DNA from: Styela clava
Taxonomy: Eukaryota
Length of the DNA stretch: 64,000 nucleotides
Reading direction: 5' to 3'
NCBI RefSeq assembly: GCF_964204865.1
Contig: NC_135250.1
Span: 14,322,001 to 14,386,000, forward strand
The first letter of the stretch is position 1, and every line of letters starts with the position of its first letter. Shown in pieces: positions 48,693 to 63,922 of the stretch. The position numbers and the translations under genes are program-made. The notes beneath the pieces are model-generated. The model worked only from the letters and a program-made list of their open reading frames with translations, was not told the origin of the DNA and did not search any database.

Positions 48693-48913
48693 TTCAAAAG
48701 TGTAACGTAGTTACACAATTATGCGTACAATAATAGTATACAGTAGTGGTACAGAAGGTAGAAGGCTATCGTACTTTCGGTCTAACCAAAGATTACAATA
48801 ACATCTGCAAACTTAAATAGCGCATTCCAAAGATTTCGGTGGGGTGACATAATATTGTTTCTAACGGTTTTAATCAAATGTGGAGGATCATTTATGAAAT
48901 AGATGTACCTTAA

Positions 48914-50110
48914 CTCTTTGAACTCTGACGGCTCTGAGCGAAGTTACTCGCTCACCCTGACGGTTCGCGGCGCGTATTGGTAGAACAATAAAATAAGTCT
49001 AAATACTGGCTATTTGGCACGTTTATAACTTTTCACCAATTATAGGTAGCACGTTGTGTGACATTTCAATCGAACGGAAATTTTATCGTGCATTCAGAAT
49101 GTATTTTCCATTTCGAAATACATTTTGTCAATATTAATAAAATTGACCCTAATCTAACAGTGATTTTTCTGCATGTACGTGAGTTTTGGCTTGAAATTTT
49201 GTTATTTTGGTACAAAATATACTGCCAATACTTGATGTTCATAAAGAGTTTTTTATAAGCTTTTTGTTGATATTCGAATTACTATTGTGGCTGCCATATA
49301 ACCAATCTTATATTCCAATATTTAATTGTGTATTATTGTGTCGGGTGAACAACTTCGATAAGCGGCCATGACGCACTGATTACGCAGCTACGCAAAAGCC
49401 GATCACGTGATTAACGCCATGAAGATATTGATAAGTACGTTCGAAACGTATTGCGTGGCAAAATGCGCAAGATAATTTCACGACGACGTTCTCAGCGGGA
49501 CATCGGTCGCCGAGTTTCGATATGATATTAACCCTGTATGGATTGAAGTACCCACGTCGAGTAATGCGTGCAGTAATAGCGAAGTGAAGTTGTGTAGTAT
49601 GTGAAGTTGTGTATGTATGTATGTATGTACAATATCTGAGAGAACTAATAATGCAGAAAGAGCAACTCTTATTCCAACAAGATCATATGCGTCGCCAGAA
49701 TTAGATACCCCACCGCAAAACGCCAGTTCTAATAATAGATGCGTCGTATGCAGCAAAATTTACATTATTGCCAAAAAAACAATCCAGCTGCTAAAGACAA
49801 AGCGTTGCTGAAACGATGCGAGGCAGTATATAAGTGCAAATACTGTAAAGAGTACCTATGCATAGGTAACGAAACCAACAACCATTGGTATAACTGGCAC
49901 AACAAAGTGCAATATTGCATTTAGAATGTGTCTTTTATCTGCATAATATTTTCATGTTCTTCATTGTTCCGGGCAAAACAAAGTGCAATATTCAATTTAA
50001 AAATTTTAGCAGGCAGTCTTTTATGTACATACATTTTTCATGGTCTTTATTGTTCAGTTATTTGCTAATAAAATCACAATCTTGTTCATACTGCGTATAC
50101 GTAACCACAA
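48914..50110 (+). mobile_element. Internally deleted piggyBac-like remnant
   Basis: TTAA at 48910-48913 followed by a CTCTTTG terminus. Frameshifted C-terminal cysteine-rich domain RCVVC...YKCKYCKEYLCIG...WYNWH at ~49738-49915. No right TIR found. Confidence 0.65.
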
Positions 50111-50149
50111 CTTAATATATATATATAGGAATAAATTAACGTAAGTAGC

Positions 50150-52851
50150 GATATCGTATTGACCCAAAAACTAACTGCTACAATTGCAAAGAGTTACTTA
50201 TTCAAATTGCAGGGATTTTTCATTCTGTATTTCGGTATGTCGTCCTCAGCTTGGCATAAATTCATAAAACATTTTTTTGTTGGCCGGAAGACCGTCCCCT
50301 GTAAACCAAAAATCATTAAACAAAAATGTAACTTCACCATTCGATTCGTAATGCTTAGCACTAAAGTCGACATGCAACCATGTACCTATACCCATGGCTT
50401 TCGTTGACTTACCTACAACTCCAATTATTGTAATACCGGTTATTATTTGTAACTGCTGAAGAACTTTTAACAGGAGTACAAACAATCCATCTGAATTAAT
50501 TCCAATAGTTGGGTAATATGCGATTAGCATTAGACGGTCTAATAAATTGTTGGTCAAACCTATTGGAAAAAATCACTAATGTATTGTTATGAGCCTGAAC
50601 CAAGATTTATACGCTGATACCTCTGAGATAGAATGCTAGTACTTGACTTGCAACCGCGTTAGTATCTGAAACTGAGCTTGTTAGTTTTTCGTCACCGTAA
50701 TCCACAAATCTCCACTGTGCTTTCTGTATACATTTTTTTCTGAAAACCGATAGTTACGTTAAAATTGTTATTGACGATGGTCATTTTATAAACGAAATAC
50801 CCTTGATCATCATCTTATCAATTATTATCAGCGTCACTCACTATTCGCAAGGTGCTGTTATAACAATTTGTCGAATCTCTTTCATAATATTCGCGGTAAT
50901 TCCAACAGTAGGTTGGAAGGCATTTCTTTTCTTCAAAATTGTTTGCTTGGAAGGTAATACAAGGACTTTCTAAGATCTCAAACATTCATAAGCCGTGGGA
51001 CTCTTATTAAAACGTTTAAGGCAATACCTTGGAATGAAAAGTTATAAAATTATATGTCTCTGACACCCGGTACCGCAATAAAAAGACAGCGATATAAGTA
51101 ACATATGTTCATTTACCTCAATACAGACGGTGGATATCTTCTGCAACAATCGGAAACATTTTTTAGCCTTTTTTTTGCGCTTTCCACCATTCGCTAAGGA
51201 AAACATCATTCTTGTGGGAAACCATAATTCCTTCTATAATTTCGAGCGTTTTATCATCCACAAAAATTGATTCTCCATATTTACTTTCCAATTTCTGATG
51301 GCTATTTAATGGAATCTACTCTCTATTCTATGGTAATAATTAGATTAGACACTCGTTCGAGTTTTAAAATATTTCAAACCTAAACTTACATATTATCTTT
51401 TTGAATTATAGTTGCCACAAGACGTTCCTTCGCACAAAGCCTAAGATTTTTCAATCCGTCTTGGGCCGGATTTTTCATTACTTTTGCACGCTCTGCTGAT
51501 CTACTTTCGTTATAATTTTTATCATGTGACTTTGATATGCACGAAGTACAAGACGCACCTTCATGCTGTACGGCAACTTGACAGCTTTTGCTGAGATACC
51601 TGAATAAATCGATTTAAGTGCTGAACATGGAAGAATAAAATTAGTACTATCAGTACAGTACTAATAAAGATAACCAACTATATTTTGTTGAGGTATCGCT
51701 AAAGACTCACCTCGTGTGTGGGATGGATTTGTTTTAAATACATTGTGCACGGAATCCAATTGCATGGCTTATATACGTTTTCATATCCATTGCACAAATG
51801 AAGTTCAGATAAAATTTTTAGGCACTCGTCAATGGGCATAGTTTTTATACATATATTCTCCAATAACAGATTTTTCGGGACTTGAATGCCGTGTAAATAT
51901 AAAGATATGGTAAGATCTTCAACAACTTCTAGAATTGTGTCTGTTGTGTAATCCGAATTCTTCGGATAGACGGAGTTTGGGCAAATTAGAAAATTCTGCG
52001 GGTCTCCTAACTAAATTTCTTCTTGCCATTGGTTTTTGATACGAAAATTTTTTCTCGGGTAACTTCAGATTTGGAAGTGATCCAGGAAAAAGCCACGACT
52101 TTATTGACGCTACAAAAAACAAAACTTTATTAAATAACAAATATATAATGTATTTAACTAATATATATATATAGAGTGGCGTCAATTCGTGGTTACTGTT
52201 ATACCTAGGGAAGAAAACAATACAATAATTTGTACAAAATGAAACAAACGCAAGTATTTACATCTATGAATTTCTTTTGTATGAAAATGGTCTTCACAAA
52301 TAAATACATTACCATGATGGAGGCGTTTGCCAAAATTTAGGTTAGATGGATCGCGATATTTTATTAAAATGGATATCATGTCTTTACGCCAGTTTGCTGT
52401 GTCAACACCTGCGGTTATTTAATAAAAAAAACTTGAAAAATCTGAATTTTATAGCCCATATTTACATAACTTCACAATTGTTTAACTATACACAGAAACA
52501 GCAACAATACCCTTATCACAAAGACAACACAAAACATCAACATACTGACACGATACAGAGAAACGTATTCCATTTTGACAAATTGGGATCCATACATCGG
52601 CAGCAACTCCTGTGAACAACAGAAAACAAAAGCCAATTTCACAGATTTGCCCAGTTTTAAAATTTGTACCAACAATTTTTTTGGTAAAATATGCGGATTT
52701 TTTAAGACAATAAAGAGAATGATCCTAATAAGATGTTATGGACATAATACTAATATTATAACAGTATAAATTTACTTAACTGATTCGACTGCACATGAGA
52801 CAGACACACGTAGACACACAAACAACATTTATAATTTCACACAAGAGGCAT
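50150..52851 (-). pseudogene. Decayed intron-containing P-superfamily (THAP9-like) transposase
   Basis: Minus-strand segments in the expected order: THAP (NWRKDMI...FICEDHF, PGSLPNLKLP), SKSC...CTSC, WWKAQKK..RRYPPSVLR, KSPTAYECLRS*KVLVLPS (HTH), IDKMMIK (decayed DEM), IAYYP...GVV/GDGLPANKKMF. Several stops and frameshifts; 3' truncated. Confidence 0.8.
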
Positions 52852-53311
52852 AGGCTATACGGTTTCTTGAACTGAAAAAAAAAAAAAAAATTCAAAAAAT
52901 AGTCATGCAGACTCCGGGTATCACGTTGAATTATTACCTTTTTCTGATTTTAGCTGTACCTGAAAATTTTCACAATTTAAAAACAGTCATACTTTCACCT
53001 AATGCCATACCATTCGCGTAAAAGATCAAGAATGGTATTATAAGTTTATTCCATTCATAGTCTACCTAACTTACACAACATATATCAGTACATACTTTAT
53101 CAAAAATCTTTGAATCAAAATACTGAAATAAAATGAGGAAAAACGCATATGATTAAGTCACCAAGAGTCAAAACTTGATAGACAAAAAAAATGTAGACAA
53201 TAACAACCAACTGATTGAGTTTTTTAGGCGAGGCTAACTTGCCCAGTTCCTATAAAACGGCACCGTACCTCTTACAGTTTTTCTTGACGGTATTTTGAAT
53301 AAATGCTTCCT

Positions 53312-53653
53312 GGCGCGGCGGTGTGGCTCAACGGGCTAAGCGATAGGAATACGCTCGCCACCGCACCTCTAATTACTCTGCGTGGGTTCGCAGGTTCGAA
53401 TCCCATGCAGGGATGGTTATGTGCGAGAGGATTGCTGGACTCCTCGCCGTCGTTGGGTGGTTCACGTAACCGCTGGTCGGTTACGGCTTCCTCCACCACC
53501 AAGTCCATGCTTCCCAAAACAAACAATATAACTAATCTCATACCCGACTTGGAATGGTAACCGGACGAGAGGCCGTGGTTCGCCATATGGATAAGCCGTC
53601 TTATCGGCTTTCCTCTTCCCCGGGATAAATATGTAAATCCTATCATATCCTAT
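53312..53653 (+). mobile_element. tRNA-derived SINE
   Basis: A box TGGCTCAACGG (53324-53334), B box GGTTCGAATCC (53393-53403), GC-rich body, tail of ATCCT-like repeats. Confidence 0.8.
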
Positions 53654-54268
53654 TTGTTGAGCGTCCGTAACATCCGGGGATACAGCAGTACTTTCCTCCA
53701 ACACTCCCTGCTCACTTGTATTCCATAATTAAAGATAAAACGTCCAAGTTAATACCCTGCACCTAACTGAAAACACCAGTCTACTAGCATTACTCTGGCA
53801 CTACTCCAACTGCTAATCCCCTAGTGTTGGGTGCGATGGCATTGTCAAGTGCGTCCCGAACGCTTAGCTGCCCAGCGCCATTAGCTTTTCTATTGCAAAA
53901 TATACCAAGTGCAGTTTCAAGTATTTTATGGCGTCTGAAGCTGCCGCAAAACCATGGTGGAATTCCTAAATCGTGGCCGCTATTGCCAAACCCATGGCGA
54001 CTGACTTTTTAGCTGACACAAACCAATGGTGAAATTGAAAACTAAAGGCGAATGAAATTTTTCTGCCGTTACCACGGCATGCCGGCTGTAATGGCAGGGC
54101 TGTCCCTGATAGTAAAATCTGGTACATGACTTCGTGAATATACCGGTAATAGCGCCATGACGCATGACCACGGCAAAGGCTGCCAAACTGGTTTATTCCT
54201 TATCAAACCAACGACTAATCTACTAAGCAAACTATAGAGAATTATAACCCTCTGTTGACCCTCTATAA

Positions 54269-54561
54269 CAGGGGTGGGCAACATACGGCTCGCGGGCCGT
54301 ACCCGGGCAAGATTTGGACCGACCCGCTGACTGTACAGTATTACACATTTAGTACATTATGAAAATTCATTATGGGTTTTTTGGTCTCTATTTTTTGTAA
54401 AGTTTAAACTTTACTTTAAACGCGATTTATATTTTTCCTTCTTGCATTAGCGAATAAATATGTGATTAAGATATTCAATACTATTCATGTAATAATCCGG
54501 CCCACCGAGGACTTCATTTTCCCACATCTGGCCCGCCGACTAGAGAAGTTGCCCACCCCTG
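54269..54561. mobile_element. 293-bp hAT MITE
   Basis: Perfect TIR CAGGGGTGGGCAAC / GTTGCCCACCCCTG; perfect 8-bp TSD CTCTATAA (54261-54268, 54562-54569). Confidence 0.95.
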
Positions 54562-55745
54562 CTCTATAATCAAACTATGCACCAAGAAAAATTTGATTAA
54601 ACACAAAAATTAATGGCATATTACCTTACATGGGTACTGTATAGATAGGACCAATGACATTTAATGTCATTGATAGGACGTTCTCGGCTCAATGTCACCA
54701 ATGGACGCTTGCGTACTGCAGTTGATTTTTGCTGGAGCGGTTTTCAAAAATTCTACTGCGTAAAACTAGCCTTAGTTAGCTTTATGTAAAGAGTAAGCGT
54801 CAAATATCCTGAAAATATATTCAGAATCATATTCGTAATAAACTAAAATCTGGTAAATGACTTTGTGAATATACGATAATAGCGCCATGACCACAGCAAG
54901 AGCTGGCATTGGTTCGTTCAGAGCCATTATATCTAATGGCTCTGATTATATAATGGCTCTTGTTCGTTCGTGACGGGAGCTGCCATGAAGTGGTAAGAAC
55001 CGCGCCTCAAATATACCGTACCGGTATGATGTTTGAGTGTTTTGCAAGTTGGCAGTTGCAAACTGGTTTATTCCTTATCAAACCAACGACTAATCTAATT
55101 ATCAAACTATGGCCGACCGTGATCAAACTACGCAACAAGAAATTATAATTAAACAAAAAAATTAGTGGCATATTACTATAGAGGGTCAACATAGAGATAC
55201 CACCTCTGTGTGACGTCATAGTTCCGCATGAGTAAAGAGGTATGACCTTCTCAGCGCTTAACTTTGCCGCCAAATATTTTGACCGAAGGTTTTTTGTTGC
55301 CCCAAGCTGCGGGCATTTTTAAGTTATTTTGTAACGCTTCGTATATATATATATATATGAGTAGATTAGCTATAAAAATCACGCTAGCTTTCGTTTCGAT
55401 ATTTATGTCACAGACTGTGAACTTGACCTAATACGGTACGATAACCTGGCACCGGTACGGTAACTGCTGAACTGACAGCAGTAGCAATAATATTATTCAG
55501 ATATTGCTATTTCATTTTCGGTAATTTTGCTTTCAGGCCCGTACCACAGTATTGTAGACAACTTAGCTCTAATCTATCTACCGGTACATATAGTTCTAAT
55601 CGTAGGTGCCGTACTTGCACAGGAATCCTTTATTTCAACTTATGTGAAGAGGGAACACAGTTTGGAGAAGCAAACCAAGTATTTGTGGTATCGATACGTG
55701 AGTATTGTTATATATATATATTAAGTGATTTAAATATTTTTTACT

Positions 55746-58700
55746 ATGCCAGCTGGAACGCATTGTGCAGTGCCGGGATGCAGCTACTCCTATGTCAAGT
55801 CTAGGAAAGCAGGACAGTCTGTAAAAACACTATTTTCTGTTCTTCGGCCCGATCTGGCAAAGACTCCTCAGGAAAGGAAACACCGGGAGGGGTTGTCCAA
55901 TTTTTTATTGGCGATGAGAGACAGTAGCAGAGGAGATAACATCAAGGCTATGCTGCACAAAGAAACGTAATGTACTTATCTAGGCATATTAAACATATAA
56001 ACAAATTTATACAGCCTATAATAGTATAATTGAGTAATTGCGTTCAAAAATTCTGCTGTGTGGATTATCAGAAACCCGGAATATTTGTTAATTTTTCTTA
56101 TCGTATATTTATCGTTATAATTTGCTAAGCCTACCAAGCCATCTAATTTGTTTTGCATTTAATTCAAATTTTGCACAAAATGACCATAGCTAGCTTTTGA
56201 CATCTTCATATTGTTATACCAATATACTTTACCTTTTTATATTTAGGGCCTCAATATGTGAAGACCATTTCCTGGGAACCGATATACTTCGGCATGGGAA
56301 AAAAAGCTCTTTAAGACTCGGAGCAGTTCCATGCAGAAAAATTCCCAGGAGTTCAGCTGTGTACCAGGAAAAAACAAGACCTCTCCCAGCTGTGCGTGAA
56401 CCACTGCCGGAAAAAATTCGATATCGATCTACTAGGAGTTTGGTCAGTGCCACTTCATACTTGTCGCAATCTATGAAAGGTATGCATCTGTAGAATTTTT
56501 TTTTGCTTGTTTAGCAAATTTTGATTGAACTTTTTATACAGATAAGTGGGCTTTGTATGAGCACCGAGGAAAATTTATTGCAGAGATGAGAAAGGATGAT
56601 TACTGCGTGCCTAGTATAAGGTAGTTGTTTTTAAACAGAAGTTATCAATTATAGTTTGGTTTTCAACTTGCAGAGAATAGGATAACATTTTAGTTTTCAA
56701 TTATTTTGTTGCTGTGTCATTTGAGTAGTAATTGAGTTTGACAGCATGAATTGTAAGTTCAGCAGTTTTTCATTGTAGCGCAAGTTTGTCGTTAGGGAAT
56801 ATTTTTAGATGGCAGAATATTAAAACTCATACTAGGAGGCTACAGGATTGTACAGAGTAAATAGCTAAGATAAATTGCAAATACCAAATCACAAATATAC
56901 CCATGAGCCATATGACATACCAAATTTTATCTAACAACTTATCAATCTAAAACAAACTGAAATAATTTTACACAATGATGAAAAAAGAGTTGAGTATGGA
57001 GAAGATGGTGCAATGCAAAGTGCTCATTTTTCTGGCTGGAAAGTCGAGATTGCAAAGCTAGGAGTTGACAGATGTGATACTCTGAATTCTGTTTTAGGTA
57101 TACATTTTCTTTTGACAAGTTCACCTTTGTTTTATTCTGTAACTCAAATTTGTGTTATCCATTTAAGACCAATTAGGCAAATTGGAGTTGTGTTGCGGTA
57201 TTGATCGGCGGGATGGCAGTACATTGGTTCACCCAGTTTTGTCGTGGGGAGGTGACAAGATTAATATCAAAAATATATATCGGTCAACATCATGTAGCAC
57301 AATTGGTATGTTAGTAAAAAATCGCTGTTCGACTGTCTCGAGAGCATATATATGATTGCAGGATATTTTTAGTGGATGTGTCAATTGGATGCCCAATGTG
57401 CAGCAGCTGCATGTCAGAACAGTTCAAAAATGACGAGGAAGAACACCATCCAAGCCAGGTCATGTTGCAAGTTGATGATACTGTGCATGATATGATCAAG
57501 GTCATGTTTACTTTTTGTTTTATTTCACGATCAAATAATTTTTAATGTACTAGACTCAAGAGATTAATTGTATGACTGACTTGTGAATATTTTCACAGGC
57601 CACTTTCGCTTCTGAAAGTTCCATCTTGAATACTTGGCAGCAAATGTTTTTTGGTCAGCAGCTTGCCAACTCCAATGCTCACCCCTCTTCACGTCGGTAC
57701 CATCCAGATGTGATTCGTTGGGCTATGGAACTCTATTGCAGATCGCCTTCTGCCTATGATCATCTGCGAACAAGTCAGGTGCTGACTCTGCCTTCCCCAA
57801 GCACTTTGAATCGCTACAGGTAAATGTAATGCTTCTGACAATTGTTGGGGTGTACTATGGTGAATTTAAATTAACTTTGATAACCATTTGGCCATGTTGT
57901 TTTCTTTCAGTCTATTCAAAAAAAATATTTTGTCTATTATCTGTCTACTTATTATATCATACATTGGTCAGTGACTCGCGATTGCTGATTTATTTTTTAT
58001 TTTTGCAGAAATGTCATTCCACCACAATCTGGGATTAACAAACTGGCATTGAAAGAAATGGAGAGAGTCATCAAAGACAAGGGTTCATTGATTGGATTTG
58101 TTGCTCTCGATGAGATGAAGGGTAAGCTCACTTTAATTTTTATTTACAATCTTACATCATTGTCATATATATGAATCTCTGATACAGTTAGAGAAAATCT
58201 GGTCTGTCGTAACGGCAAATTGATTGGTTTCGTGGACAAAGAAATGGCAAGGAATGGCAATAATGACCAGCTTGCTTCACACATTTTAGGTAAGTTGTTA
58301 CTGGGGTTTTACTACGGTAGACTTTTTATGTAACGCAGTATTAATGTTCTACATGTTTCTTCAGTATTCTACGTTAGAACCGTGAAGCGAGATCTGTCGA
58401 TTCCTTTGGCGTGGTATGCAACCCGTAACTCCCCAGCCTCCAAGCTTTGTCGGGTGTTTTGGGAACTTTTAATTGAATGTGAGAGCCGAAGCGTAAAGAT
58501 CCTTGCTGTAATCGCAGATGGTCACAGTACCAACCGTCGCTTTTTCCAACTTTTAAGTGGCAACTTGGAATTGCCTTGTGATGGTGTATTGTTTGCTCCT
58601 AATATATGCGACTCTGACAGGAACATATACCTATGTTCTGATCCATCACATTTGATCAAGGTAATAAAAGAAATGGGCAAATGGCATTGTATAATGTTTA

Positions 58701-59995
58701 CCATGATGCGTTAATTTTCAACAGTCTTTTTTTCATTTGTTCAGACTGTTCGAAACTCGTTATATGCATCAAAAGTTGGTGGGAAGAAGCATATGCGCCG
58801 AGGTGGCCAGGACATTGTGTGGAGGCATATTAAAGATCTTTATATGCAGGAATCTGTTCAGGTCCTTGGCCGTACCAGACTGAGTCCATCACATGTAGAG
58901 TTAACACCATATAGTAAGGTAAGCTAATAGTCTAATTGTGTTGGTTTGGCCGCACGACACGCTGATGAAATCCCTGAAATGGACTTATTTCAACTAAAAT
59001 TTTTGATTCGCTGCCAATGCCCTTGACTGTGGTAACAGGATTTTCAATAACTAATTTTTTTTAATACAGAGTGATTTGGGAAAATCTTTTTTATTTTCAG
59101 ATGAAAGTCAATCTTGCAACTGATGTGCTGAGCTGGAACGTCGGCCAATGTTTAAAAACAATGAATGGGACGAATGGAACTGCCAAATTTGTTTTGATGT
59201 TTGCAAAGTAAGTCGGTCATTTTTTAAAAGAAAAAAAATTCCCTATTTTTGTGTCAGTTATGCATGTATCGTCCATTCAGATGGTATGAAATTGTCAACT
59301 GTTCCTGTAATTGCCCCATACGATGCGTCGACGATGATAGACTGTCTTGGTTGAAGAATGGCTTCATAGGTTCACTGTTGGAGTGGGAAGTGAGTTGTAT
59401 TTTTTGTATGGTTTTATTCAATATGATCACAATCTCTAAAAAGATCTACAACCATAGCATTTGAAGATTATATTATATTACTATGCCATAACATTGGAAA
59501 TAAGAGATGTCATTTTGGGGTTGGCTATTGTTATTTTCATGCATTATTTATTCTTGAAAACAATTATAGAATGAGCATGGTGGAGATGAAAAGAGTTTTC
59601 TGGCTCGCCCAACCTTAGAGGGACTGAAATTCACCACACACAATTTCATAGAGATGTGCAAATACCTTCTGGCAAATGGTTTGGAATATGTGTCTTTGCA
59701 CTGCTTTAATCAGGATGTTTTGGAAGCTTTCTTCGGAAATTTGGTGAGATTTTTTGGGGGGGCTGAACTGTATGGGTATCTATCTAGCCATGTATATATC
59801 TAATCCGCAGCATCACATTCATAGAGACAACTTGGATCTAGATCAAGCAATCCAGACATATCTCAAGTATCCTATGGAATAACCCAAATTTCGCAAAGAA
59901 AGATCATCAAGAAGGTCAAAGGTGGTAATACAACCTATGGGAAAGCGAATGCCTGGACAGACATATGTGAACATCCATTGCCATCAAAAAAATGA
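55746..59995 (+). CDS. P-element/THAP9-family transposase, 15 exons, ~791 aa, no stops or frameshifts in the model
   Basis: Exons: 55746-55966, 56247-56479, 56542-56620, 56988-57097 (weak acceptor), 57168-57305, 57373-57500, 57599-57819, 58009-58121, 58188-58289, 58365-58660, 58745-58918, 59101-59207, 59281-59389, 59570-59743, 59825-59995 (2376 nt). THAP C2CH (CAVPGC...CEDHF..GAVP), HTH (RYHPDVIRW..SPSAYDHLR..LPSPSTL), catalytic ALDEMK, IADG and NQDVLEAFFGNLRQ, D(2)H motif DPSHLIKTVRN, and the insertion-domain motif KMKVNLA. Confidence 0.92.
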
Positions 59996-60662
59996 ACATT
60001 AGCATAATTTCGGCTGCAATCATGACTTACGATATTTAGAACTTGCAGATTATGCTTTTTCTCTTATAATATCGTGGATTGTTGCCGTAAAATCAATATT
60101 GGTCTTTTGTTCGAAACATTTGACCATACACACAAGGCTTTGGAGTCGGAAGTCCAACATTTTTTTATATCGTAGCTGTGCGCAAAATTTGGTTGAATTA
60201 ATCAGAGTCAAATTTTTATCGTAATATTCCATTCAAATTTATCTAAAAAACTAAGCATTGAATTGACTAGAGTATTTTCAATAGATAATTAAATTCAGTA
60301 AGACTCAATAAAGTTTTTGTAAAAGTTTGGTTTGTTGTAGCCTGTTTCGAACTCTTCGTCAAATTTGAATTATGGTCTAAATTAACTGGACTTCACAGCC
60401 TGCTCGGAAACTTATTAGTGCTGTTTTATAAATAGCATGGCAATCAAATAACAAGTTTGGATGGCAGAAGATTAAAGTGGATGATGCAGTTTATTGCCTG
60501 GTGTATTTGAGACTTTGTGTATTTTAGTCGAATCAAATTTAATTGGGTGCTTTTTGTTTGGTACATAAGAGAAACACTGAGATAACCCGGCCCACACAAT
60601 AATTAAACAATAGACTCAATCAAGTACCTCAAGCTTTTTATTTTAGCAGTTACTAAAAAAAA

Positions 60663-61589
60663 TTAATTGAAAATATGACTGTTGCTGATTCTTGCCAAAT
60701 CTGGTCTAGTACCTCTAGAACAGACACCAGACCCCGGGGCCCTCTTTTTGAATAATTTGTAAAACAACTTTCTTGCATATGCATGTGAAAGCACTCTTAT
60801 AAATAAACTCGTTACATATCTTGCTATCTTGACACTTTCTTTTTGTCCATTGCAATAGGGTAGCATGTCATTGACATTGGTATCAAAGTTTTGAGACTCT
60901 TCTAACTTATTTTCAATTCCTGCAAAGTCTATAAGATGTGGCTGTTTAGCACATTCCTGCGCTACTTTTTGGTAAGCCTCTTCTAATAGTAACAAGTATG
61001 CTTGAGTTGGATACTTTAGCTTTCCCTCCGGGAACTGCAGTAATGGGATTGTTGAATGGGAGGGCCTTTTTGCACAGAGGGAGTCCAGGGCTTTTGCTGA
61101 TTCTGCAAATTTAATATACCCCTTTTTCAGGGTATATCCTGCAATGTACTCAATTATGCCTTTTTCATAACTGTCGACCTGTTCGCAAAATAAATTCTTC
61201 GGGGTGGCAAATGTTACATTGTCATCCAGTGGCTTGAGAATGTAGTTGGTTATTTCCAACATGGCTTTCGCTGTAAAAATTTTTTCCGTATGCCCAGCGA
61301 ACATCTTTGGCGAGAGGTGTGAGCATTGAGAGAATTTTAGCATGACTTGGTCAGCTCCTTTCTCTCTGGCAAAGACTTGCATGAGGGCTTTTATAATATT
61401 CAAGCCTTCAAATGTTAGCTCTAAGTCGGATCTTACGTTATTGACCAATTTTATAACTTGATCATCGGAAACTTCCGGAGTTCTTCTATTTTTTACTTGT
61501 GTTGATGCTTTCGAATGAGGAAATTCTTCGATTTTATCGAAATCCTCAAAAAGGAACTCAACAATTCCATGTATCTCGTTAGTAGCCAT
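60663..61589 (-). CDS. Intronless 308-aa accessory ORF inside the P element; C-terminal half resembles the P/THAP9 transposase C-terminal domain
   Basis: Longest ORF in the window, ATG to stop, lying within the TIRs. Contains EKGIIEYIAGYTLKK...GKLKYPT..YLLLLEEAY...YVTSLFIRVLSHAYARK. Confidence 0.85.
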   Translation of the reverse strand: MATNEIHGIVEFLFEDFDKIEEFPHSKASTQVKNRRTPEVSDDQVIKLVNNVRSDLELTFEGLNIIKALMQVFAREKGADQVMLKFSQCSHLSPKMFAGHTEKIFTAKAMLEITNYILKPLDDNVTFATPKNLFCEQVDSYEKGIIEYIAGYTLKKGYIKFAESAKALDSLCAKRPSHSTIPLLQFPEGKLKYPTQAYLLLLEEAYQKVAQECAKQPHLIDFAGIENKLEESQNFDTNVNDMLPYCNGQKESVKIARYVTSLFIRVLSHAYARKLFYKLFKKRAPGSGVCSRGTRPDLARISNSHIFN

Positions 61590-63286
61590 TACAGATGAAT
61601 AACAGTAAGTAAGATAACTTATAAGTTACTGAGTAATAAACTAGAGCTAGGCTGGGTATGTGAAAAATAATTAATTACAGAGATTGTGCAAATTGACAAT
61701 CTAAACGTGGTAATGCTTTTGACTTTTAATTAATCAACACTCCTTTTTTTTCTCACTAATTAGGCTATGTGGCTGATTTCAGACAGATAACGGTTTCAGC
61801 ATCGATTTAGTATGAGAATAAATGGTAAGATAGCAGTCCAATAAAAATAGAGTAAAATACAGTGGTTTTCAATCACAGAGGCCAATACAATATTGATAGT
61901 ATACAGTAAAGAAACATATTTATTAATTCTGAAAGCAAACTACCGAATCATGACCCTGAACTGATGGATTGGCTGGATACAAACCCGCGACATCTTGACA
62001 CCAAACGGCCAACGCTGAAATAGATCGCGCTGAGGAAAACATCGCATTTCCTACTTCCGTACCTCTTTACTCATGTGGAACGACCTTTGAACCCGCGAGT
62101 GAATTCTCTATTATCATTCTCTGTGATATTACATTACCTTACATGGGTATAGGACGTTCTCCGTTCAACGTCACCAAAGGACGCTTCCGTCGGGAACAAA
62201 TTGCCTTACCGGTACTGCAGTTGATTTTTGCTGGAGCGGTTTTCAAAAATTCTTATGCGGAAAACTAGCCTCAGTTAGCTTTATGTAAAGAGCAAGCGTT
62301 CAAATAAATTCTGAAAATATATATAGAATCATATTTACCATAGAATCATATTCGTGAAAAAAAATATCAGTGATAATCCACAAAAGATATGAATAGGCGG
62401 TACCGGTACCGTATCACCAATGAACATGAAGAGAAATTTAAAATGAGAGCGAGATCTGAATGCTTTGATACCGTAACAGTGTACTTACGTCTGTACGTAG
62501 TTTAGTGTAGTCTACTTGTTGTGTAAGTCTGAAAATTTTCAAATTTTTTGTGTTAGTACTGTGCTGGTAAATTGAATTGTTTTGCCTACCGGTACCCATA
62601 CTGCCATATGATGATTTGTAGTGAGAATATTTCGATGATATGATGCTGGTATTTCTCACTGTAATGTGGTACTAGTAGTAGTTTTGAACATGTATAACTG
62701 CCCAGTGTTGGACCTAGCGCCACTTCTTCTCAAATATGGTATGTTTTGATACCTGGATACCTGTACAGTAAACTTATACAGTATTTCTACTGTCATTTGC
62801 TATTGTCATTTTTTTATGTAACTATTGTACATTCGTGATTTCAATAATAACTTGAAAATTTGATAATCCTAACCAACTGGATAATATGTAGCCTATTCAA
62901 ATGAATTGGATACTACTGACTGACTGATGCAAAATCCATGGAACATACAGATACGGTATATGATAATGATGCTAATTATATTAGGTGGTCACAATTAATG
63001 TAATTGGATGAATATTGTTTCTTTGTTTCAACACATAATGAAAAAGGGAATTTAAGAGTAAGCTGTCACTGTCTGAGGAAAGGGATGTGTTTTGAAATAG
63101 TTGAGTGTGCAAACATCACTTCTCATATGTTTTCTCGAGTTGAATTGTACCAAATAGGAATAGAACTAGAATTTATATTAGATCATCAATTCATATTGTT
63201 ATTTGACCAAATAATCTATTAATTCAGATCTTATTAATCATTGTTATATTTGCTACTGTGTCTGTAAAATCTCCTACAGTCCTAGG

Positions 63287-63922
63287 ATGAATGTTGATCA
63301 TGAGGTGCAACTTCTTGTGGAAGAAATGAATCGACTGGGCAAACAAAGTGAGAATGTCAAGTTTTCGTATATTGGTTATTGAATATTTTGCCAGAGCAAC
63401 CAGCAAGCTATTGAAGTTTAAAAAATTGTCTTTCCAAATTATGTGTCGCTGCTATGATTGTGAATTATCCATGTATCTGTTTCGATCATTTAGATCAGTT
63501 CGTTCACAAATTTTGCTCTCATTATTATTCGACAGTGACCATTCATGTGACGAGAATTCTCATTCATATTTATTAAGATGGTCATACAGATACCAGTAAT
63601 AAATACTGCCATTTATAAATTGAGACTTGCAATTTTCTAAACAGAAAAATACATGTCATTGTGAAGGAAAGCCAAATTATGCAAACATGCATCAAAAATA
63701 TCCTGAAAATAACTTTGTGTTCCTTTTGCAGATGCAGATGGAAAAATATCAGTTACCTTTGGAACCCTGTTTGCAGATGACCGATGTGCAAATATATTTG
63801 AAGCATTAGTTGGAACATTAAGGGCAGCAAAAAAAAAGAAAATTGTTGATTACCAGGGTGAACTTCTTCTTCAAGGAGTTCATGACAATGTTCCCATTAC
63901 TTTATTAAAGGAACAATTATGA
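63287..63922 (+). CDS. ABRACL: Costars family protein ABRACL, 83 aa, 2 coding exons
   Basis: Exons 63287-63347 and 63732-63922 give MNVDHEVQLLVEEMNRLGKQNADGKISVTFGTLFADDRCANIFEALVGTLRAAKKKKIVDYQGELLLQGVHDNVPITLLKEQL, collinear with vertebrate ABRACL. A splice acceptor at 63278-63279 implies an upstream non-coding exon. Confidence 0.96.

What the first reader, a model, noticed from the sequence alone, without database searches (positions are those of the whole stretch)
54226..55176. Insertion hotspot: repeated 7-bp duplications with AT-NNN-AC consensus within ~1 kb
Seen: duplicated targets ATCAAAC (54226/54569; also 55101/55122 around a different 14-bp insert TATGGCCGACCGTG), ATAGGAC (54645/54673), ATATTAC (55170/62126), and GTTCGTT(C) (54912/54962, around a palindromic CAGAGCCATTA...TAATGGCTCT insert). 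The same ATCAAAC site carries different inserts in the two paralogous copies. Known: P elements favour promoters, and Galileo-type P elements make 7-bp TSDs with a GTANTAC consensus. Inference: this promoter-like segment has been hit and repaired repeatedly, so its sequence is partly built from transposon scars.
Basis: partly seen in the sequence, partly recalled or inferred. Interest (0 to 1): 0.7.

Follow-up and report, generated by a model that had tools for sequence, protein, structure and literature searches.

The report
P-transposon scar hotspot upstream of Costars
About 1 kb of DNA upstream of a small expressed gene holds one whole P-type jumping gene plus three short inserts built from the tips of three P families, likely scars left when earlier copies cut themselves out; this is known fruit-fly P behaviour recorded in another animal, by elements whose enzyme is predicted to be split over two genes.

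Summary
The hotspot is real; two details need correcting. 54226 reads AGCAAAC, not ATCAAAC. The genome-wide target consensus is RT-NNN-AY (40 of 89 sites), not AT-NNN-AC (19) or Galileo's GTANTAC (0). In 950 bp lie: a 6,949-bp P element (7-bp duplication); three inserts made of the ends of P families A, B and C; one unassigned 14-bp insert; and a nested MITE with an 8-bp duplication. The same insert types occur genome-wide (19, 136, 45 sites; controls 1, 2, 0). Retained ends pile up at 15-16 nt and exceed 17 in 6 of 146 ends, matching Drosophila P excision junctions (17-nt overhang). Four such events within 1 kb is far beyond uniform chance (about 7e-6). The sites lie 0.7-1.7 kb upstream of RNA coverage of a Costars gene, but the start site is unmapped and promoter preference was not tested genome-wide. 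All three families carry the transposase C-terminal domain as a separate facing gene. I did not find that in print, but this scan has noted split P elements and P scars before, in other genomes.

The parts
54113..54833 (+). Copy 1 of a local tandem duplication (the target segment)
   Evidence: Self-BLAST pairs 54113-54161/54844-54891, 54184-54235/55059-55110, 54569-54624/55122-55176, 54673-54833/62149-62335; 90.7% identity
54226..54232 (+). Left 7-bp duplication of footprint 1 (AGCAAAC; one mismatch to ATCAAAC)
54233..54267 (-). Footprint 1, family A, 35 bp: 15 nt identical to the left end of the neighbouring element, 15 nt matching its right end at 12 of 15, and a 5-nt filler that repeats adjacent sequence
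   Evidence: 19 such sites genome-wide, control 1
54269..54561 (.). MITE with perfect 14-bp inverted ends and an 8-bp duplication (54261-54268/54562-54569), inserted into footprint 1; hAT label recalled from these features, not tested
   Evidence: high depth
54569..54575 (+). Right 7-bp duplication of footprint 1 (ATCAAAC)
54645..54679 (.). Footprint 2, family B: 21-bp insert 54652-54672 (10 + 13 nt of the B end, overlapping by 2) between two ATAGGAC; the site is empty in copy 2 (62149)
   Evidence: 136 sites genome-wide, control 2
54838..55008 (.). Part of an unclassified high-copy dispersed repeat; its other copies have a single, empty GTTCGTT site
   Evidence: 557 candidates, 40 scored; alignment of 11 copies; loose ends at 54838 and 55008
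54912..54968 (.). Footprint 3, family C: 43-bp insert 54919-54961 (14 nt of one end, 15 of 16 of the other, with a repeated internal piece) between two GTTCGTT
   Evidence: 45 sites genome-wide, control 0
55101..55128 (.). 14-bp insert 55108-55121 between two ATCAAAC; family not identified
   Evidence: of 50 pattern hits (control 15) 35 were examined and only this one has a 7-bp duplication
55177..62125 (+). Whole family-A P element, 6,949 bp, between ATATTAC 55170-55176 and 62126-62132; the site is empty in copy 1 (54618)
   Evidence: Pfam PF12017 and PF21787
55746..59998 (+). Transposase core gene, 15 exons, 791 aa, ending shortly after the RNase H-like domain
   Evidence: 14 GT..AG joints in run X5; open translation
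60663..61589 (-). Intronless 308-aa ORF facing the core gene; matches the C-terminal domain of Drosophila P transposase
   Evidence: profile hit to 6p5a_B, E 6e-4; VIA-align Z 10.0, rmsd 2.7, 114 of 118 residues
62133..62335 (+). Rest of copy 2 of the duplication (first part 54844-55176), starting with an extra 5-bp repeat of the target
63287..63922 (+). Costars (ABRACL-like) gene, two coding exons, 83 aa; RNA coverage rises from about 62830
   Evidence: PF14705 E 4e-25

Best explanation
This segment was hit at least four separate times by three families of P-type DNA transposon, and three short inserts are made of those families' end sequences between 7-bp duplications, likely the repair scars of excision. 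Shown: the whole element, the 7-bp RT-NNN-AY duplications, the match of inserts 1-3 to the ends of families A, B and C, empty sites in the duplicated copy or in other repeat copies, and the excess over chance. Inferred: the transposase cuts each end with a stagger of about 16-17 nt, leaving single-stranded element tips on the chromosome; end joining then fuses the tips, using microhomology or short templated fill, and fixes duplication + tip + filler + tip + duplication. Inferred: the segment is hit often because it is open, gene-upstream chromatin, helped by re-use of earlier target sites. A MITE later landed in scar 1. Predicted: the enzyme is assembled from a core protein and a separately encoded C-terminal domain.
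For: Family searches: 19, 136, 45 sites against controls 1, 2, 0. Exact 7-bp duplication in 12 of 19, 29 of 41 and 30 of 44 examined; exact 8-bp in 0, 2, 1. Whole parents: A, 11 of 13 paired copies with 7 bp; B, 22-nt inverted repeats, 923 ends, derived from an element with a P transposase, E 3e-53 to the A core (L365); C, 23-nt inverted repeats, 7-bp duplication, degenerate P core E 6e-4 (L371). Retained length exceeds 17 nt in 1 of 28 (A), 5 of 66 (B), 0 of 52 (C) ends although B and C repeats are 22-23 nt; perfect 17+1+17 forms occur in B and C. Drosophila excision junctions have the same layout (PMC2895639 passages). Uniform expectation of such a cluster about 7e-6. Target-like 7-mers are not denser in the segment (3.2% against 3.9%), so sequence alone does not explain it. 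Drosophila P insertions cluster in promoters and re-use sites (PMC1592238, PMC7776569 passages).
Against: The start site of the Costars gene is not mapped; the sites are 0.7-1.7 kb upstream of the 5'-most listed RNA contig (62836) and 1.2-2.1 kb from the ATG. CpG content around footprints differs only marginally from background (1.06 against 1.02, p 0.018; 1.04 against 1.00, p 0.086). 84 of 89 footprints have no second P end within 1.4 kb, so hotspots are the minority. The 14-bp insert has no family. The commonest retained length is 15-16, not 17; the C peak at 16 follows from a palindromic microhomology, and six ends reach 18-20. One side of footprint 1 differs from the present A end at 3 of 15 bases. 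If only 5% of the genome is open to insertion the expected number of such clusters is 0.055, so the locus need not be special beyond being open.
Confidence: 0.82

Rival explanations
1. The scars are excision footprints, but they cluster because P elements re-insert near or into earlier P DNA (local hopping, re-use of the duplicated target) or because the region is purged poorly, not because it is a promoter.
For: Back-to-back B elements sharing one 7-bp target (C2:1064987/1064995, C2:1659490/1659498; L365); two B footprints and a B element within 600 bp (L180); B ends in 2 of 30 flanks of A elements; a B end 109 bp from a C end; a degenerate P-like gene 1.8 kb to the left; half depth over 62176-63000 in the source sample, so the other haplotype differs here.
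Against: Three families with different ends are involved, and the targets here are unique or non-P repeat DNA. A motif of the form TACCGGTA is enriched near footprints even after masking repeats (10 against 1.1 expected) and lies in this segment and upstream of the Costars gene, which points to a shared host feature; that the motif marks promoters is untested.
Confidence: 0.3
2. The inserts are not excision scars but extreme internal deletions or tiny mobile units formed by recombination between the inverted repeats.
For: Both would also sit between 7-bp duplications; some forms are stereotyped (24-bp form of C, 16 of 28); six ends keep 18-20 nt.
Against: Deletion between repeats should often keep the full 22-23 nt and subterminal DNA; 140 of 146 ends stop at 17 or less. 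Insert lengths are heterogeneous (16-47 bp) with templated fillers, as in published excision junctions.
Confidence: 0.07
3. The short repeats are chance or slippage products in AT-rich, duplicated DNA.
For: Plain 7-bp repeats are not denser here than in the rest of the window. The 14-bp insert can be read as a local 11-bp duplication with a 10-bp filler, and may be of this kind.
Against: Three inserts match ends of whole elements found elsewhere, with 200 family sites against 3 control hits.
Confidence: 0.02

Closest known systems
Drosophila melanogaster P element, its excision junctions and promoter hotspots (PMC7776569 passages and sections 8-9; PMC2895639 passages; PMC1592238 passages)
   Same: HTH and RNase H-like domains; junctions of duplication + element tip + templated filler + tip + duplication; retained tips up to about 17 nt; repeated insertion at the same site upstream of a gene.
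   Different: 7-bp rather than 8-bp duplication; family A ends match at only 5 of the first 8 bases (31-bp perfect repeats in P); 15-exon core; C-terminal domain in a separate facing gene; several families leave scars at one locus.
Galileo (P superfamily; PMC4168063 and PMC2775673 passages)
   Same: 7-bp duplication with a palindromic core, T at position 2 and A at position 6.
   Different: Galileo has inverted repeats of hundreds of bases and consensus GTANTAC; here repeats are at most 23 nt and 0 of 89 sites match. Galileo hotspots are secondary pile-ups at inversion breakpoints, of whole or partial elements rather than excision scars.
Zebrafish Pdre / THAP9 (PMC10983969 passages and section 6)
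   Same: Non-insect P elements with short inverted repeats and many deleted copies.
   Different: 8-bp duplication, single transposase gene; the section read reports deletions at excision sites and no overhang length.
Earlier notes of this scan (unchecked AI notes): two-gene P elements (e1-6728889, e1-7804738, e1-7786438) and vertebrate P scars (e1-10274936, e1-10275378)
   Same: Same split layout; same reading of short palindromes between duplications as P scars near promoters.
   Different: Those scars are described with 8-bp duplications and an 18-20-nt cut; here 7 bp and 16-17 nt, and the scars are tied to parents of the split type.

Membership tests
P superfamily (element 55177-62125) | P-type HTH and RNase H-like domains | tested here: met
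   PF12017 29 bits (cut-off 23) and PF21787 30.2 bits (cut-off 24.6) on single exons
P superfamily (element 55177-62125) | N-terminal THAP (C2CH) domain | tested here: inconclusive
   Cysteine and histidine pattern seen by eye in the spliced translation (motif recalled); Pfam gave no hit on exon 1 alone
P superfamily (element 55177-62125) | GTP-binding insertion domain | tested here: inconclusive
   PF21788 14.1 bits, below cut-off 24.8, on one exon
P superfamily (element 55177-62125) | 7- or 8-bp target duplication | tested here: met
   Exact 7 bp in 11 of 13 copies with both ends found (15 pairs given)
P superfamily (element 55177-62125) | 17-nt staggered cut | tested here: inconclusive
   Indirect only: retained ends peak at 15-16, 140 of 146 at most 17; 16 and 17 cannot be told apart for A
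P superfamily (element 55177-62125) | GTP requirement and catalytic activity | not testable with these tools
   Needs biochemistry
Canonical Drosophila P / THAP9 type | One transposase chain that includes the C-terminal domain | tested here: not met
   Core stops at 791 aa; the domain is in the facing ORF
Canonical Drosophila P / THAP9 type | 8-bp duplication and perfect terminal repeats of 13-31 bp | tested here: not met
   7 bp; A ends match 5 of 8. B and C do have 22- and 23-nt repeats
Galileo | 7-bp duplication | tested here: met
Galileo | GTANTAC target consensus | tested here: not met
   0 of 89 sites
Galileo | Long, internally repetitive inverted repeats | tested here: not met
   No long inverted arms at the ends of A; B 22 nt, C 23 nt
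P excision footprint | Insert made of the two termini of a P family, between two copies of the target | tested here: met
   Met for inserts 1-3; not shown for the 14-bp insert
P excision footprint | Empty and filled alleles of the same site in a population | tested here: inconclusive
   Empty paralogous sites exist for inserts 2, 3 and the whole element; reads of other samples showed no joint across them, at low or repeat-confounded depth
Promoter insertion hotspot (Hsp type) | Insertions within the proximal promoter of a mapped start site | tested here: inconclusive
   Only assembled RNA contigs were available; they cannot show a start
hAT MITE (54269-54561) | Short inverted ends and 8-bp duplication | tested here: met
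   14 of 14 and exact 8 bp
hAT MITE (54269-54561) | Link to a hAT transposase | not tested
   Label recalled from the end features

The most novel reading that the evidence does not exclude
Two-gene P transposons, whose DNA-contacting C-terminal domain is made as a separate protein, still carry out the full fly-type reaction (17-nt staggered cut, palindromic target, gene-upstream targeting) with a 7-bp duplication. Their excision scars are a genome-wide, natural readout of the cut position for each family and a continuing source of new sequence in host promoters, and the scars in turn become landing sites for a second transposon class.
Probability: 0.45. Interest if true: 0.65.

Novelty: new variant of a known kind. 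Interest (0 to 1): 0.45.

Why it matters
The hotspot and its scars follow rules known from Drosophila, so the phenomenon is not new. What this locus adds is a link between scars and parents: three families with a split transposase can be tied to hundreds of natural excision junctions, which gives an indirect measure of the cut geometry (16-17 nt) outside flies and makes the role of the C-terminal domain testable, since it can be supplied or withheld as a separate gene. It also offers a compact case for asking whether such scars change the output of a host gene.

Tried and rejected
Family for the 14-bp insert: pattern search gave 50 hits against 15 controls, mostly tandem repeats; 35 examined, no other 7-bp duplication; a candidate end near two P genes had the same flank in both copies and looked like intron sequence. 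Rejected as a defined family. One ancestral insertion giving both inserts at ATCAAAC: disfavoured, the two inserts end differently, but not excluded. Haplotype comparison: two read layings listed no joint across the element or the scars; the first was swamped by a SINE; no conclusion. No listed run was on record as RNA; X5 is taken as RNA because of its 14 splice joints. De novo scan for second footprints in the first 137 loci found no strong case outside the window. CpG as a promoter proxy was nearly uninformative (Ciona lacks CpG islands, PMC4691747 passages). Six long B copies held LINE or hAT insertions, no P transposase; the parent was found later. C ends sought with a first pattern were all footprints; whole elements came from a second pattern. 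ORF2: no Pfam family, no hit in the word-indexed search at near or longer lengths, atlas best score 0.79, Foldseek nothing at E 1e-3, with 6p5a_B at rank 28. No complex prediction was run: halves of a split gene tend to pass by likeness to the solved structure. Two papers were not held (PMC316450, PMC4399808). No supplements were read.

Full report
Setting. The window is G000:C1:14322001-14386000 of a 377-Mb eukaryotic genome. Earlier notes of this scan call the organism a sea squirt; I did not test that.

Observation. The duplicated 7-mers are at the stated places, except that 54226 reads AGCAAAC. The segment is a local tandem duplication, copy 1 at 54113-54833 and copy 2 at 54844-55176 plus 62133-62335, 90.7% identical over the aligned core. 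Plain 7-bp direct repeats are no denser than elsewhere in the window. Repeats that flank an insert with inverted ends are: 4 hits at 3 sites against 0.011 in 3,000 shuffles, with criteria set after the fact.

The large insert. 55177-62125 is a P-superfamily element. Exons hit PF12017 and PF21787 above cut-off and PF21788 below it. Searches with its two ends gave 21 and 23 matches. Of 15 pairs examined, both ends were found in 13; 11, the window's included, have an exact 7-bp duplication, and the other two have a different element abutting the left end. Fourteen splice joints in run X5 give a 15-exon, 791-aa open core. The RNA contig at the left end carries a foreign flank, so expression of this particular copy is not shown.

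The short inserts. Insert 1, once a nested 293-bp MITE and its 8-bp duplication are set aside, is 35 bp: 15 nt of the left end of family A, 15 nt matching its right end at 12 positions, and a short filler. Insert 2 is 10 + 13 nt of the end of family B, and insert 3 is 14 and 15-of-16 nt of the end of family C with a repeated inner piece. Patterns built from these ends find 19, 136 and 45 sites, with 1, 2 and 0 control hits. I examined 19 of 19, 41 of 136 (9 of the 50 listed were left out: 7 copies in one repeat and 2 seen separately in L180) and 44 of 45. Exact 7-bp duplications flank 12, 29 and 30 of them, exact 8-bp ones 0, 2 and 1. Whole parents exist. B has 22-nt repeats and 923 ends and is a deletion derivative of an element with a P transposase (L365). 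C has 23-nt repeats, a 7-bp duplication and a degenerate P core (L371). Empty sites are seen in the duplicated copy for insert 2 and for the whole element, and in 11 other copies of the host repeat for insert 3. The 14-bp insert has no family: of 50 hits (15 controls), 35 were examined and only this one has a duplication.

Target motif. Over 89 independent footprints, 40 fit RT-NNN-AY (background 2.5%), 59 have T2 and A6, 19 fit AT-NNN-AC and none GTANTAC. The window's targets score at the 92nd to 99.5th percentile of window 7-mers, but good targets are not denser in the segment (3.2% against 3.9%).

Mechanism. In Drosophila, P transposase leaves 17-nt single-stranded tips on the donor site, and end joining gives duplication + tip + templated filler + tip + duplication (PMC2895639 passages; PMC7776569 passages and section 8). 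Here, in sets found with only 8-9 fixed bases per side, retained tips peak at 15-16 nt and pass 17 in 1 of 28, 5 of 66 and 0 of 52 ends. Perfect 17+1+17 forms occur in B and C, and in the C cases the 18th base is not the one in whole elements. A further set selected for 17 retained bases is biased and is not counted. I infer a stagger of 16-17 nt; this is indirect, and six ends at 18-20 need fill-in synthesis or microhomology to explain.

Hotspot. With about 720 events of the three families counted so far, a cluster of four within 1 kb is expected about 7e-6 times under uniform insertion and 0.055 times if 5% of the genome is open (rough Poisson). Around 89 footprints, 5 further P ends lay in 240 kb, against 2 weak hits in 400 kb of evenly spaced background; 84 of 89 are solitary. 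Other clusters exist: L180, back-to-back B pairs on one target, B ends beside A and C ends.

Promoter. A Costars gene lies at 63287-63922, with RNA depth rising from 5 to 118 near 62830. Without the element, the hit sites are 0.7-1.7 kb upstream of that point. A degenerate P-like gene points the other way from about 52420. CpG content near footprints is only marginally above background. A TACCGGTA-type motif is enriched near footprints after masking repeats and occurs in this segment; its meaning is unknown, and one literature search did not explain it. The promoter step is therefore an inference from position and from Drosophila (PMC1592238 passages). Haplotype comparison was inconclusive.

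Split transposase. The facing ORF 60663-61589 has 28 relatives at E up to 0.001, of 106-331 aa. A profile of 18 of these sequences, the query included, hits the C-terminal domain chain of Drosophila P transposase (E 6e-4), and the predicted model (pLDDT 77) matches it with Z 10.0, rmsd 2.7, 114 of 118 residues, the only match at Z 8 or more among 48,161 chains. The tool warns that such Z values can be reached by helical proteins, and Foldseek found nothing significant. Core and domain lie on opposite strands, facing each other, in nine loci (window, L170, L172, L176, L178, L364, L365, L369, L371). In L174 the two pieces are on the same strand, in L168 no core was found, and L361 has a fused 834-aa form. 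I had reached this reading before looking at earlier notes; the scan has it from other genomes. Paper searches did not return it; searches did not return natural P footprints or an overhang length outside Drosophila. The library lacks Repbase and most subscription journals, and no supplements were read.

Comparison and verdict. The locus works like a Drosophila P hotspot and its inserts like P excision junctions. The elements belong to the P superfamily but are neither canonical P (7-bp duplication, split enzyme) nor Galileo (short repeats, other consensus; PMC4168063 and PMC2775673 passages). The finding is real and largely explained by known biology, with a variant element architecture. Confidence 0.82, interest 0.45.

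Noticed in passing
window 55746-59998 (+) and 60663-61589 (-); L170, L172, L176, L178, L364, L365, L369, L371: Two-gene P elements: the C-terminal domain is a separate facing gene in several diverged families; a fused form (L361) lives in the same genome. The six split families whose ends were found all have 7-bp duplications, while L370 has an 8-bp one; whether the split tracks duplication length is untested.
   Followed up: yes
window 54269-54561; L095, L097, L106; also L005, L009, L013: MITEs with hAT-like ends repeatedly sit at the left end of family A elements and footprints (4 of 19 footprints): the A end plus a flanking C forms an 8-bp site these MITEs appear to favour.
   Followed up: partly
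L180:4703-5282; L317:4688-4696; L365:8117-8125: A second hotspot (two B footprints and a B element on a re-used target) and back-to-back B elements sharing one 7-bp target.
   Followed up: partly
window 48850-52420 (-): Degenerate THAP/P-like transposase gene pointing away from the hotspot (tblastn E 3e-7), at single-copy depth with low RNA coverage; no Pfam support on its pieces; ends not found.
   Followed up: partly
window 54142, 55020, 55451, 55580, 62208, 62402, 62588 and flanks of footprints: A TACCGGTA / ACCGGTAC motif is enriched near footprints after repeat masking (10 against 1.1; 9 against 0.1) and lies upstream of both the transposase and the Costars gene; possible promoter element.
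   Followed up: partly
window 62133-62137, about 54636-54644 and about 62188-62210: Further small indels between the two duplicated copies (5, 9 and 23 bp), two next to hit sites; possibly older repair scars.
   Followed up: no
window 62176-63000: Depth in the source sample is about half that at 52000-52800, so the second haplotype differs strongly or is rearranged upstream of the Costars gene.
   Followed up: no
window 59824-60939: An RNA contig of the transposase runs into the 3' part of the facing ORF, so the two transcripts may overlap; contigs are unstranded.
   Followed up: no
window 53311-53644 and 53940-54183: A very high-copy SINE-like repeat and the left part of the unclassified dispersed repeat flank the hotspot.
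   Followed up: no
window 21490-41744: Multi-kilobase direct and inverted duplications at 80-95% identity.
   Followed up: no
G000:C19:5354524-6726894: Fifteen family-C ends in 1.4 Mb, eight spaced about 95 kb apart on one strand, suggesting a large segmental array.
   Followed up: no
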